Below are positions 576-58,415 of a DNA stretch of 64,000 bases, piece after piece; within the stretch, counting starts at the first letter, position 1, and every line of letters starts with the position of its first letter. The notes under the pieces were generated by a model. The model was not told where the DNA came from and searched no databases. It saw only the letters and a list, made by a program, of their open reading frames with translations. The stretch covers positions 28,368 through 92,367 of the forward strand of contig JBEKMG010000009.1 in NCBI GenBank assembly GCA_050008635.1, read 5' to 3'. The DNA comes from Rhizomicrobium sp. GTDB lineage: Bacteria > Pseudomonadota > Alphaproteobacteria > Micropepsales > Micropepsaceae. The translations under genes were made by a program, and so were the position numbers.

Positions 576-624
576 AACCCCCATACCGCACTATTGACAA
601 TTGTTTTCTGATGATATTTTATAG

Positions 625-973
625 CTTCGAACACTGGATAGTTCGTTAGGGACGAGAACGCTCATTTCGAGAATGCTCGTTTGAGGCGAAATAGCCGGTG
701 TCTGTAAAGGTAGGCGGATCGGGTTTGCCGGGTTTTTCAGACCCTATTCCGCGATTGTAACTTCTGGTCTCTTCGAGACCGCTAACTAATGAAAGCAACG
801 TAGTCAGGAACCATCGGTCGCAAGCCACTGGTAGCCCGGATCAGAAAATCTGGTGGCCGAAACACCCTGACTTCGTTGGCATGCAAAACACTCTCGGAGT
901 TCCGAGGGGTGTTGCAGGTCGACGAAGTCAATGGACCCGCAACACCTAAAAATTAGGCGAGGTTGCGTGTCCA
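625..973 (+). ncRNA. Candidate structured non-coding RNA or long 5' leader, family unknown
   Basis: Consecutive hairpins with G-U pairs: 628-645, 651-681, 714-752, 766-780, 796-878 or alternatively 868-930, and 932-973. Upstream TTGACA at 594-599. No credible ORF. Strand assumed from G-U pairing and the downstream genes. Confidence 0.5.
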
Positions 974-1297
974 ATGAAATACTTGGTCGTCCACTACGAA
1001 TTTGAAGGCTTACGGTGCGATTTAGATTCTTCGGTGCCGCCCCCCGCTGTGCCTACGAGTGCAGTGAACTCAGTAGTCCTGATTTTTCTCGTCAGTTCGC
1101 TCGCGGCACTTTTCGGGACTGGAATCTACGGCATCGTCTTCAAAGACTATGTGCCAATCCTATGCGTTTGGGCCGTTTGTGGTCCGGTGCTAACGCCAAT
1201 TGTCAAACGCTATGTCGGGCCGTTTGATGGGTGGAACTTTGATGCTGGATCAATCGGGAAAAGTGGAATTCAAGCGGGTCCAAATCGACCTTCCTAA
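974..1297 (+). CDS. Small membrane protein with two predicted TM helices
   Basis: ORF with two hydrophobic stretches (VVLIFLVSSLAALFGTGIYGIVF; YVPILCVWAVCGPVLTPIV). Start codon uncertain. Confidence 0.55.
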   Translation: MKYLVVHYEFEGLRCDLDSSVPPPAVPTSAVNSVVLIFLVSSLAALFGTGIYGIVFKDYVPILCVWAVCGPVLTPIVKRYVGPFDGWNFDAGSIGKSGIQAGPNRPS

Positions 1298-1478
1298 ACG
1301 TGCATACGAGCGCCTAGTGAAGCTAAAGGGCGCAACAGAATCCTCTTCATATGCGGATGTCCTCAGAAACGCATTATCGATTTATGCAGCCATCGTTTCG
1401 ATTATGGATGGTGGCGGCGCAATAATGGTGAAACAACCAGACGGAAGCGTCGTGCCGGCATATTTCATTTCGCGGTAA
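1242..1478 (+). CDS. Ribbon-helix-helix (CopG-like) DNA-binding protein
   Basis: [35 protein letters not shown] has the alternating beta-strand plus two-helix RHH pattern. ATG at 1242 chosen within ORF 1200..1478. Confidence 0.65.
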
Positions 1479-1552
1479 CCACCACGAAACTTGTGCGCCG
1501 AACCACGTGCCGCTTGCCCCCTCCCCCCGGCTTGCTTATAAGCCGGGTTTTG

Positions 1553-2524
1553 ATGAGCCCGGCCGACGCCGCCCTTCCGATCCTCAAAACCAGCCATCTG
1601 CTTGGCATCGAAGGCCTTTCGGTCGGCGAGATCACCGGCCTGCTCGATTTGGGTGACGAATACGTCACGCTCGGCCGCGCCAAAGAGAAGAAGTCGCCCC
1701 TGCTCAAGGGCCGCACGGTCATCAACCTGTTCTTCGAAGCCTCCACGCGCACCCAAAGCTCGTTCGAGCTGGCGGGCAAGCGGCTGGGCGCCGACGTGAT
1801 GAACATGTCGGTGCGTACCTCGTCGGTTTCCAAGGGCGAAACGCTGATCGACACGGCCACCACCCTCAATGCCATGCGCCCGGACATCCTCATCGTGCGC
1901 CATCAGGATTCGGGCGCGGCCGAGATGCTGGCGCGCAAGCTCGATTGCTGCGTGGTGAACGCCGGCGACGGCAGCCACGAACATCCGACGCAGGCCTTGC
2001 TCGACGCGCTTACCATCCGTCGGCGGCGGCGTTCTCTCGCAGGGCTGACGGTGGCGATTTGCGGCGACGTGGCGCACAGCCGCGTGGCGCGCTCCAACAT
2101 CCATCTGCTGTCGAAGATGGGTGCGCGGGTCCGCCTGATTGCGCCGCGCACCTTATTGCCCGCCGCGGCGGAGCGCTTCGGCGTCGAAATCTTCACCGAC
2201 ATGCGCGAAGGGCTGAATGGCGTGGACATCGTGATGATGCTGCGCCTGCAGATGGAGCGCATGACCGGTGCCTTCATCCCTTCCACCCGCGAATATTTCC
2301 GCTTCTGGGGGCTGGACCGCGAGAAGCTCGCCTTCGCCAAGCCGGGCGCGCTGGTGATGCATCCGGGGCCGATGAACCGCGGTGTGGAAATCGACTCCGC
2401 CGTCGCCGACGACATCGAAGTCAGCCTGATCCACGAACAGGTAGAGATGGGCGTCGCCATCCGCATGGCGGTGCTGGACGCGCTGTCGCGCGGGCTCTCG
2501 GCCGAGGGGCGCAACGCGCCATGA
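1553..2524 (+). CDS. pyrB: Aspartate carbamoyltransferase catalytic subunit
   Basis: Motifs [16 protein letters not shown] and HPGP; ATG at 1553. Confidence 0.97.
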
Positions 2525-56351: not shown

Positions 56352-58240
<1,889 letters not shown>

Positions 58241-58415
58241 TCTTTATGGGATACAAGCGCCCCTGGGATAAGACGATCATCCGCCGAAGGCCGTCGGTGT
58301 CAAGTCGCCACTTGAGCCGGTTGGTGTAACAATAAACCGGCATAGCAACTAGCTCCGACGCGAGGCGACCGGCAGCCGCCACGCGCCACCTAACGCGGCA
58401 ATCTGGCAGCGCCGG

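What the first reader, a model, noticed from the sequence alone, without database searches (positions are those of the whole stretch)
625..973. About 350-nt densely base-paired non-coding region: candidate novel structured RNA
Seen in sequence: stems cover most of the region: CGAAC/GTTCG (628-645); GACGAG…CATT/AATG…CTCGTT (651-681); GGC-GAAATA-GCC (685-696); GCGGA+GGGTTTG/CAGACCC+TCCGC (714-752); GGTCTC/GAGACC (766-780); a 63-nt rod (868-930, about 26 bp); and TGGAC+CGCAAC+CCTAA/TTAGG+GTTGCG+GTCCA (932-973). Many non-Watson-Crick positions are G-U on the + strand, there is no credible ORF, and TTGACA lies at 594-599. Inference: a transcribed structured RNA or long leader that I cannot match to tmRNA, RNase P, SRP, 6S or a common riboswitch. 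Alternative: a structured ssDNA origin or signal of a decayed mobile element.
Basis: partly seen in the sequence, partly recalled or inferred. Interest (0 to 1): 0.8.

Follow-up and report, generated by a model that had tools for sequence, protein, structure and literature searches.

The report
Translation-locking leader RNA of small operon
The stretch is the long 5' leader of a rare two-gene operon (a small two-helix membrane protein plus a DNA-binding-type protein), and its conserved 3' half can fold in competing ways that hide or expose the ribosome-binding site; it is a new RNA family working by a familiar mechanism.

Summary
Only the 3' half (796-973) folds better than chance (z -6.95) or is conserved. 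The 5' half (629-795) scores z -1.9 and shares no motif with homologues.

The region lies between a conserved sigma-70-type promoter (TTGACA 594-599, N17, TTTTAT 617-622) and the ATG (974) of a conserved 2-TM protein gene. A ribbon-helix-helix-like gene (1242-1478) follows.

Nine further loci carrying this gene pair have the same RNA design:
- P1 (796-808 with 866-878)
- a 16-27 bp rod (868-930)
- a hairpin that buries the Shine-Dalgarno (932-973)
- an alternative helix, H2, between the rod's 3' arm (908-920) and the anti-SD arm (934-946)

These helices are mutually exclusive, are kept in 83-91% of cells, and show compensatory changes. Rod plus sequestering hairpin is the predicted ground state, so the mRNA should be translationally locked. 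Losing or occupying the rod's 5' arm should let H2 form and free the SD.

No Rfam family matches. There is no conserved aptamer, no U-tract terminator after the rod or D hairpin, and no conserved antisense promoter.

Verdict: a real, undescribed cis-regulatory leader. It resembles type I toxin mRNA leaders such as dinQ and timP, but is not a member of those families. The function is inferred; no transcript data could be obtained.

The parts
594..622 (+). Sigma-70-type promoter: -35 TTGACA (594-599), 17-nt spacer, -10 TTTTAT (617-622). The inferred transcription start is near 629.
   Evidence: Read from sequence. The same ATTGAC[AG]-N17-(-10) arrangement lies 270-390 nt upstream of the membrane-protein ATG in L003, L005, L007, L008, L010, L176 and L177. 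The L010 promoter is about 90% identical to the window's. The start site is inferred, not measured.
629..795 (+). Variable 5' domain of the leader. It is neither conserved nor significantly structured.
   Evidence: z -1.94 in the window and -1.65 to +1.1 in homologues. No k-mer is shared by all six. It holds a terminator-like hairpin at 709-729 followed by GGGTTTTT that is not conserved.
796..808 (+). Segment A (CAACGUAGUCAGG), the 5' strand of helix P1.
   Evidence: CAACG is conserved in all 7 aligned sequences apart from one A-to-G change in L005 (CAGCG) that keeps the pair as G-U. P1 is paired in 91.4% of cells, against 24-44% for slid controls, with 2 pairs changed on both sides. A is the best upstream partner of B in 7 of 9 sequences.
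809..865 (+). Variable hairpin domain enclosed by P1.
   Evidence: Sequence and length differ in every homologue. It is predicted to be a hairpin in each.
866..878 (+). Segment B (CCUGACUUCGUUG). It is the 3' strand of P1 and also the base of the rod's 5' arm, so it has two alternative partners.
   Evidence: CGUUG pairs either with CAACG (796-800) or with the CGACG end of the rod's 3' arm (920-924 in the window).
868..930 (+). Rod hairpin. Folded as 874-924 it has 21 bp in the window (-28.1 kcal/mol) and 16-27 bp in homologues.
   Evidence: Inverted repeat I1. Twenty-two model pairs are 89.5% paired across 8 sequences, with 5 pairs changed on both sides. The base is conserved in sequence, while the apex varies in sequence and length but stays paired.
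908..946 (+). Alternative helix H2 (anti-sequestering helix). The rod's 3' arm GGUGUUGCAGGUC (908-920) pairs with GACCCGCAACACC (934-946), which is the anti-SD arm of the next hairpin.
   Evidence: Inverted repeat I3, 13 nt, 92% complementary. It is 90.6% paired across 8 sequences against 38-49% for slid controls, with one column changed on both sides. It beats shuffles at 0-5 of 300 in each of 6 sequences. It is kept with different sequences in L007, L008, L176 and L177.
932..973 (+). Hairpin D, the sequestering hairpin. It encloses the Shine-Dalgarno GAGG (959-962) and ends one base before ATG 974.
   Evidence: -18.6 kcal/mol in the window. Every homologue has a hairpin pairing a CCUC-type anti-SD with its SD, for example L177 CGCAUUCCUUC with GAAGGAAUGCG. 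The predicted probability that the SD is unpaired is 0.00-0.03 in L003, L005 and L010. In the window the GAGG itself lies in an internal loop of the hairpin (0.74).
974..1297 (+). Gene for a small membrane protein. The conserved core is 974-1237 (88 aa): an N-terminal [DE]F[DE]G[ILV]xC[DNS]LD motif followed by a two-helix transmembrane hairpin.
   Evidence: Alignments A8 and A10. AF2 model shows helices at 28-56 and 60-80 with pLDDT 83-89. The family is rare: 34 cluster representatives among 1.84 billion proteins. No hit in Pfam, NCBIfam, PADLOC or PHROGs.
1242..1478 (+). Gene for a 78-aa ribbon-helix-helix-like protein. It overlaps the end of the membrane-protein gene.
   Evidence: Weak Pfam matches to VapB_antitox and RHH_1. 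phrog_8557 at E 1.4e-11. AF2 pLDDT 81, with the best-probability structural hits to ParD/TCP-type folds but none significant. Homologues follow the membrane-protein gene in 10 of the 11 other loci; L180 is the exception.
1526..1555 (+). Terminator-like hairpin CCCGGCUUGCUUAUAAGCCGGG followed by UUUU. It probably marks the end of the operon.
   Evidence: It lies 48 nt after the RHH stop codon and directly before the pyrB start, so a role in pyrB control is not excluded.

Best explanation
Window 629-973 is the roughly 345-nt 5' untranslated leader of a self-contained operon of about 900 bp. The operon comprises a promoter, the leader, a 2-TM membrane-protein gene, an RHH-like gene and a terminator.

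The leader's conserved 3' 180 nt is a cis-acting translational lock built from four mutually exclusive helices:
- P1 (796-808 with 866-878) shares the CGUUG of segment B with the base of the rod (868-930).
- The rod's 3' arm (908-920) is also complementary to the anti-SD arm (934-946) of hairpin D (932-973).
- Hairpin D buries the Shine-Dalgarno next to ATG 974.

The predicted ground state is rod plus D, so the primary transcript should be poorly translated. If the rod's 5' arm is removed by endonucleolytic processing (for example RNase III acting on the 21-27 bp duplex) or is occupied (by P1 extension or a trans factor), the 3' arm refolds with the anti-SD arm (helix H2). The SD is then freed and the membrane protein and the coupled RHH gene are translated.

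Shown here: the helices, their conservation and covariation, the promoter, and the gene pair. Inferred: transcription, the OFF ground state in vivo, and the trigger.
For: Position: the region lies between a promoter conserved in position and form and a conserved start codon in the 9 loci where the upstream DNA is available; L017 is cut off upstream and L020 is partial.

Structure beyond chance, and better on the + strand in every homologue.

Pair counts:
- rod 89.5% paired, with 5 pairs changed on both sides
- H2 90.6% paired against 38-49% for slid controls
- P1 91.4% paired against 24-44%

H2 duplex energies beat shuffles at 0-5 of 300 in each of 6 sequences.

Two divergent loci that were not used to build the model are found by it directly upstream of the homologous gene: L176 at 47 bits and L177 at 24.6 bits, E 7e-6. 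They keep all four helices with different sequences.

Energy hierarchy in all 9 sequences:
- rod -21.5 to -36.2 kcal/mol
- H2 -17.5 to -32.7
- D -9.8 to -25.3
- H2-enforced folds lie 2.5-15 kcal/mol above the MFE

The predicted SD accessibility rises when the RNA starts at the rod's 3' arm: L003 0 to 0.45, L010 0.03 to 0.78, L008 0.48 to 0.80.

The covariance model finds the motif only where the close gene pair occurs: 2 of 301 genomes of the order, and not at loci of the RHH paralogue.

Distant family members (L181, L182) also have a strong promoter, a long leader and an SD-sequestering hairpin.

Literature analogues with the same logic: dinQ (PMC5066626) and timP (PMC13000454).
Against: - The start site and any processing are therefore inferred.
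- In the window itself the GAGG sits in an internal loop of hairpin D. Its predicted unpaired probability is 0.74 regardless of the 5' end, so sequestration here depends on steric occlusion.
- In L005 and L007 truncation barely opens the SD.
- Enforcing P1 alone does not release the rod's 3' arm in most sequences, so the role of P1 in the switch is unclear.
- Only 10 distinct sequences exist, and the conserved helix cores are invariant, so they give no covariation. The shuffle controls do not correct for relatedness among the sequences.
- One natural locus (L180) carries the membrane-protein gene with only a ~35-nt leader and no RHH gene. The lock is therefore not indispensable.
Confidence: 0.7

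Rival explanations
1. It is a DNA-level element. The conserved inverted repeats would be operators for the RHH protein, or hairpins of a single-stranded DNA intermediate of a small mobile element, rather than RNA structure.
For: The basal arms of the rod are conserved in sequence, not only in pairing. The module sits in a different genomic context in every locus and has lower GC than its flanks. RHH proteins bind repeated DNA sites (general knowledge). The - strand also folds better than shuffles, z -3.8.
Against: - Folding is better on the + strand in all 6 sequences.
- A U-G wobble in the rod is invariant in all 7 sequences with that position; it would be an A-C mismatch on the other strand.
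- The last hairpin pairs an anti-SD with the SD immediately before the ATG in every homologue, which only makes sense in mRNA.
- The repeats lie 250-300 bp downstream of the promoter, with arm centres about 40 bp apart. That is unlike usual RHH operators.
- There are no flanking direct repeats and no transposase or integrase gene.
Confidence: 0.07
2. It is a ligand-, tRNA- or protein-sensing riboswitch-like leader. P1 would close a sensor domain whose occupancy decides between the rod and H2.
For: The arrangement (P1, an enclosed domain, then competing helices ending in an SD-sequestering hairpin) is that of a translational riboswitch. The P1 state and the full-rod state differ by only 0-9 kcal/mol.
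Against: The domain enclosed by P1, and everything upstream of it, varies in sequence and length in every homologue. No k-mer is shared by all six 5' domains, and the alignments show no conserved unpaired core in the enclosed domain. There is no Rfam match even at E up to 10. Enforcing P1 leaves the upper rod intact.
Confidence: 0.07
3. It is an independent small RNA gene, or an RNA antitoxin acting on the downstream proteins, rather than a leader.
For: The 5' domain has a terminator-like hairpin followed by a U-run at 709-738. This could release a short RNA of about 100 nt.
Against: That hairpin is not conserved. No U-tract follows the rod or hairpin D. The conserved part ends at the start codon and includes the SD. 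No second promoter lies before 974.
Confidence: 0.06
4. It is chance structure in a non-functional spacer.
For: The 5' half is no better than shuffles.
Against: The 3' half has z -6.95. It is conserved in 10 distinct sequences with compensatory changes, and is re-found by a covariance model at the expected place in loci that were not used to build the model.
Confidence: 0.02

Closest known systems
dinQ mRNA leader (E. coli type I toxin-antitoxin system dinQ/agrB; Kristiansen et al. 2016, PMC5066626)
   Same: The primary transcript is translationally inert. The SD is held in a stem-loop. The switch is set by alternative interactions among four sequence elements. A stem acts as a lock, and removal of the 5' part activates translation (abstract). 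The window's chain of P1, rod, H2 and D follows the same logic.
   Different: - No sequence or Rfam relationship.
- The product here is an 86-107 aa two-helix membrane protein with a conserved N-terminal motif, not a peptide of about 27 aa.
- No antisense RNA gene is evident.
- A protein gene (RHH-like) is co-transcribed.
- The leader is about 345 nt.
- Processing has not been shown.
timP mRNA structural switch (timPR type I toxin-antitoxin system; Eleftheraki et al. 2026, PMC13000454) and Helicobacter pylori aapA1 metastable structures (Masachis et al. 2019, PMC6733600)
   Same: Translation of a membrane-protein mRNA is controlled only by competing RNA helices. These either sequester the SD or free it through a longer-range interaction, and an alternative interaction locks the inactive state (abstract; listing).
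   Different: Unrelated sequences and a different helix topology; no pseudoknot was identified here. The host is alphaproteobacterial (Rhizomicrobium-like). A partner protein is present instead of a known antisense RNA.
Translational riboswitch expression platforms and classical multi-helix leaders (the 1:2 / 2:3 / 3:4 logic of attenuators)
   Same: A chain of mutually exclusive adjacent helices ending in an SD-sequestering hairpin.
   Different: No conserved aptamer, no leader peptide, and no intrinsic terminator after the competing helices.
Type II toxin-antitoxin modules with RHH antitoxins (ParD, CopG, VapB-type)
   Same: A two-gene, self-contained islet of about 900 bp found in unrelated genomic contexts. 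One partner is a small RHH-like protein.
   Different: The partner protein is an unclassified membrane protein with no known toxin domain. The gene order is membrane protein first. The RHH assignment is weak, below the Pfam cut-offs. Toxicity is untested. Typical type II modules lack a leader of about 345 nt like this one (general knowledge).

Membership tests
Any Rfam 15 family | Covariance-model score at or above the family's gathering threshold | tested here: not met
   The only window hit is a TPP riboswitch at 58148-58274. In 500-1600 at E up to 10 there are only miRNA-hairpin look-alikes of the rod, at 26 bits against a gathering threshold of 80.
Type I toxin-antitoxin toxin mRNA | Toxin is a small hydrophobic peptide, usually under about 60 aa, with one transmembrane helix | tested here: not met
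   The ORF is 86-117 aa with a conserved soluble N-terminal motif and two predicted transmembrane helices.
Type I toxin-antitoxin toxin mRNA | Antisense or trans-encoded small RNA antitoxin | tested here: inconclusive
   No conserved antisense promoter in 9 loci. No second site in the genome is complementary to the rod's 5' arm. No RNA-seq data were available.
Type I toxin-antitoxin toxin mRNA | Primary transcript with a sequestered SD and an alternative, translatable fold | tested here: met
   Met in silico only: hairpin D, helix H2 and the energy hierarchy in 9 sequences.
Type I toxin-antitoxin toxin mRNA | The product is toxic when expressed | not testable with these tools
   Needs expression in a laboratory strain.
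Riboswitch | Conserved ligand-binding aptamer with invariant unpaired nucleotides | tested here: not met
   The domain inside and upstream of P1 varies in sequence and length. No k-mer is shared by all six 5' domains, and z is not significant there.
Transcription attenuator | Intrinsic terminator (GC-rich hairpin plus U-tract) as one of the alternative structures, often with a leader peptide | tested here: not met
   No U-tract follows the rod or hairpin D. No conserved upstream ORF (by reading).
Type II toxin-antitoxin module with RHH antitoxin | Recognisable RHH antitoxin together with a recognisable toxin domain | tested here: inconclusive
   RHH_1 and VapB_antitox match only below the cut-offs, and the fold search is not significant. 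The partner has no Pfam, NCBIfam or PADLOC match.
Integron attC or other single-stranded DNA recombination hairpin | Core sites RYYYAAC / GTTRRRY at the hairpin base, and an integron integrase nearby | tested here: not met
   The arms read CCGCAAC / GTTGCGT, which does not fit at the R/Y positions. No integrase ORF is nearby.

The most novel reading that the evidence does not exclude
The islet is an undescribed kind of addiction or defence module. It would combine a type I-like RNA lock on a membrane-damaging protein with a type II-like RHH partner. The conserved rod would act as the sensor: cleavage or unwinding of the rod under stress or phage infection (by RNase III or a phage nuclease or helicase) would unlock translation of the membrane protein.
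Probability: 0.15. Interest if true: 0.7.

Novelty: new variant of a known kind. Interest (0 to 1): 0.45.

Why it matters
This defines a new, compact leader RNA family. Ten distinct sequences are known and none is in Rfam. Four competing helices can be read directly from comparative data.

The RNA is tied to a rare, uncharacterised gene pair: 34 protein clusters among 1.84 billion proteins. The pair moves between genomic contexts in soil and peat Alphaproteobacteria.

If the lock works as predicted, it extends the toxin-mRNA style of post-transcriptional control beyond type I toxin peptides to a larger membrane protein with a protein partner. It also offers a tractable model for RNA switches that have no ligand. 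The function of the two proteins is unknown, and the RNA gives a handle for studying when they are made.

Tried and rejected
- DNA similarity searches of 576-1500 found nothing: own genome and 40 relatives, plasmids and phages.
- An IUPAC pattern scan of genome contigs for the rod core returned 120 chance hits in high-GC genomes. None had the genes or the motif, so that scan was wasted.
- A word-indexed protein search with the membrane protein found only the query itself.
- The viral-contig scan gave one distant RHH relative, which was not followed up.
- Searching the loci of the RHH paralogue with the RNA model gave no motif.
- A trans-encoded complement of the rod's 5' arm was sought in the own genome and none was found.
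- The conserved-uORF idea was rejected. The window has MKAT* at 788-802 overlapping segment A, but the other loci have unrelated upstream ORFs or none (by reading).
- An RHH operator at TTGACAATTG (594-603, inverted copy at 1197-1206) was judged to be chance. About 0.6 such pairs are expected, and the repeat is not conserved.
- The Foldseek search of the RHH model gave no significant hit.

Full report
**Observation.** The stretch 600-980 folds at -145.4 kcal/mol, z -5.26 on the + strand and z -4.0 on the - strand.

Splitting the region changes the picture:

| Part | Window, + strand | Window, - strand | Five homologues, + strand |
|---|---|---|---|
| 5' part, 629-795 | z -1.94 | z -1.71 | -1.65 to +1.1 |
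| 3' part, 796-976 | z -6.95 | z -3.83 | -3.4 to -5.5 |

The 3' part always folds better on the + strand. No k-mer is shared by the six 5' domains. The real feature is therefore about 180 nt long, not 350.

**Context.** The window belongs to a 2.69-Mb genome. A relative from the same genus that carries the element is labelled Rhizomicrobium sp..

Positions 576-1492 form a lower-GC islet (about 50% against 60-70%). It lies between an MFS transporter gene that ends at 575 and pyrB. The islet contains:
- TTGACA (594-599), a 17-nt spacer, then TTTTAT (617-622)
- the non-coding stretch
- an ORF at 974-1297
- an overlapping ORF at 1242-1478
- a terminator-like hairpin at 1526-1547 followed by U residues

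**The two proteins.**
- *Second ORF.* It is a 78-aa protein with sub-threshold RHH_1 and VapB_antitox matches. It has a phage-family match with no assigned function, phrog_8557 at E 1.4e-11. The AF2 model has pLDDT 81; its best-probability structural neighbours are ParD/TCP-type RHH folds, but none is significant.
- *First ORF.* It has a conserved 88-aa core with an N-terminal [DE]F[DE]G[ILV]xC[DNS]LD motif and a two-helix transmembrane hairpin. It matches nothing in Pfam, NCBIfam, PADLOC or PHROGs. It belongs to a rare family: 34 cluster representatives among 1.84 billion proteins.

**Homologues.** DNA searches found nothing. The RHH protein led to metagenomic loci L003/L004, L005/L006, L007, L010, L017 and L020, and to one MAG locus, L008. 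The exhaustive protein search added L176, L177-179, L180, L181 and L182/L184.

- In every locus except L180 the membrane-protein gene is followed by the RHH gene.
- The neighbours differ in every locus. The MFS gene next to L003 is not the orthologue of the window's.
- In each locus where upstream DNA is available, an ATTGAC[AG]-N17-(-10) promoter lies 270-390 nt upstream of the membrane-protein ATG.

The unit is therefore promoter, long leader, membrane-protein gene and RHH gene.

**The conserved RNA.** Alignments show that conservation starts at CAACGUAGUCAGG (796-808, segment A). It continues through CCUGACUUCGUUG (866-878, segment B), the rod (868-930) and the hairpin 932-973 (D) up to the ATG. 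The helices were counted on alignments:

| Helix | Cells paired | Slid controls | Pairs changed on both sides |
|---|---|---|---|
| Rod (22 model pairs) | 89.5% | not counted separately | 5 |
| P1 (A with B) | 91.4% | 24-44% | 2 |
| H2 (908-920 with 934-946 in the window) | 90.6% | 38-49% | 1 column |

- In the rod, the apex varies in sequence and length while the base is invariant, including one U-G wobble present in all 7 sequences with that position.
- A is the best upstream partner of B in 7 of 9 sequences.
- Hairpin D pairs a CCUC-type anti-SD with the SD in each sequence. The register differs between lineages, so the column counts are lower (68-75%), but each sequence has the hairpin.
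- H2 is also reported as inverted repeat I3, 92% complementary. It beats shuffles at 0-5 of 300 in each of six sequences.

**Independent test.** A covariance model was built from seven sequences (R1).
- It finds the partial L020.
- It finds two divergent loci that were not used to build it: L176 at 47 bits and L177 at 24.6 bits, E 7e-6. In both, the hit lies directly upstream of the homologous gene.
- L177 keeps all four helices with different letters:
  - P1: CAACGAAUUCC with GGAAUUUGUUG
  - rod base: GUUGGC with GCCAAC
  - H2: GCGGGC with GCCCGC, plus GGGA with UUCC
  - D: CGCAUUCCUUC with GAAGGAAUGCG
- Among 301 genomes of the order the model hits only the two genomes that carry the close gene pair.
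- It does not hit loci of a more distant RHH paralogue, which is a core gene in 163 of the 301 genomes.

**Logic of the helices.** B pairs either with A or with the end of the rod's 3' arm. The rod's 3' arm pairs either with the rod's 5' arm or with the anti-SD arm. The anti-SD arm pairs either with the rod's 3' arm or with the SD. The energies in nine sequences are:

| Structure | Energy (kcal/mol) |
|---|---|
| Rod | -21.5 to -36.2 |
| H2 | -17.5 to -32.7 |
| D | -9.8 to -25.3 |
| H2-enforced fold, relative to the MFE | +2.5 to +15 |

- The ground state is therefore rod plus D, with the SD hidden.
- H2 is at least as stable as D in six of nine sequences. An RNA lacking the rod's 5' arm should therefore refold and open the SD.
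- Predicted SD accessibility rises accordingly: L003 from 0 to 0.45, L010 from 0.03 to 0.78, L008 from 0.48 to 0.80. L005 and L007 barely change.
- In the window the GAGG lies in an internal loop of D whatever the 5' end.
- Enforcing P1 costs only 0-9 kcal/mol but leaves the upper rod intact, so the role of P1 is unresolved.

**What it is not.**
- No Rfam family matches.
- There is no conserved aptamer-like core.
- No U-tract follows the rod or D, so this is not a transcription attenuator.
- There is no conserved upstream ORF.
- There is no conserved antisense promoter.
- No trans-encoded complement of the rod arm exists in the genome.
- A DNA-level reading (RHH operator or single-stranded DNA hairpin) is disfavoured by the strand asymmetry, the invariant U-G wobble and the SD/anti-SD logic.

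**Comparison with known systems.** The closest functional analogues are the leaders of type I toxin mRNAs.
- *dinQ:* the primary transcript is inert, four elements interact alternatively, and removal of the 5' end activates translation (PMC5066626).
- *timP:* a purely structural switch frees the SD (PMC13000454).
- *aapA1:* listed in the same literature search (PMC6733600).

Membership in that family fails on protein size and architecture, and is untested for an antisense RNA and for toxicity. The RHH partner recalls type II modules, but that assignment is weak. Distant family members (L181, L182) also have strong promoters, long leaders and SD-sequestering hairpins, although their sequences cannot be aligned. 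RNA-level locking therefore seems to be a property of the whole gene family. One locus, L180, has lost the leader and the RHH gene but keeps an intact membrane-protein ORF. This argues against the lock being strictly required.

**Limits.**
- Only ten distinct sequences exist.
- The conserved helix cores give no covariation.
- The shuffle controls do not correct for phylogeny.

**Verdict.** This is a real, undescribed cis-regulatory leader RNA: a translational lock with competing helices, serving an uncharacterised membrane-protein/RHH operon. The mechanism is of a known kind; the family and its genetic context are new.

Noticed in passing
G000:C12:205407-205592 (-) = L171 2008-2193; also L143-L170: A more distant paralogue of the RHH protein (about 45-50% identity) is a core gene in 163 of 301 genomes of the order. 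In the two loci read (the window's own genome and L150) it follows a different small, Arg/Glu-rich membrane protein with one predicted TM segment near its C-terminus (MSKLGVGVGEEFP...). In the own genome it sits between a DjlA-like gene and an AmpD-like amidase gene. These loci have no R1 RNA motif.
   Followed up: partly
L180 1-1423: A natural variant in a relative of the L008 locus. It has an intact membrane-protein ORF (P0011) behind a promoter and only a ~35-nt leader. The first bases of the L008 leader (GCCUAGGGAGC) are retained, and no RHH gene follows.
   Followed up: partly
window 58148-58274 (-): TPP riboswitch, 61.8 bits, above the gathering threshold.
   Followed up: no
window 1526-1555: A terminator-like hairpin with a U-run ends just before the pyrB start codon (1553). 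It may terminate the islet's operon, or it may belong to a pyrB leader.
   Followed up: no
window 709-738: A weak terminator-like hairpin (GGUAGGCGGAUCGGGUUUGCC followed by GGGUUUUU) lies inside the variable 5' domain. U-runs at roughly similar places are seen in L003 and L177 but not in the other loci.
   Followed up: partly
L182 744-1787 (-): A distant member of the membrane-protein/RHH module lies next to a CAP12-PCTIR_TIR-domain gene, a domain associated with defence systems. The two are separated by a 713-nt non-coding stretch.
   Followed up: no
window 594-603 and 1197-1206: A perfect 10-nt inverted repeat, TTGACAATTG / CAATTGTCAA, links the -35 region with the end of the membrane-protein ORF. 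It is about what chance would give and is not conserved in homologues.
   Followed up: partly
window 788-802: A four-codon upstream ORF (AUG AAA GCA ACG UAG) overlaps segment A. The other loci have unrelated upstream ORFs or none.
   Followed up: yes
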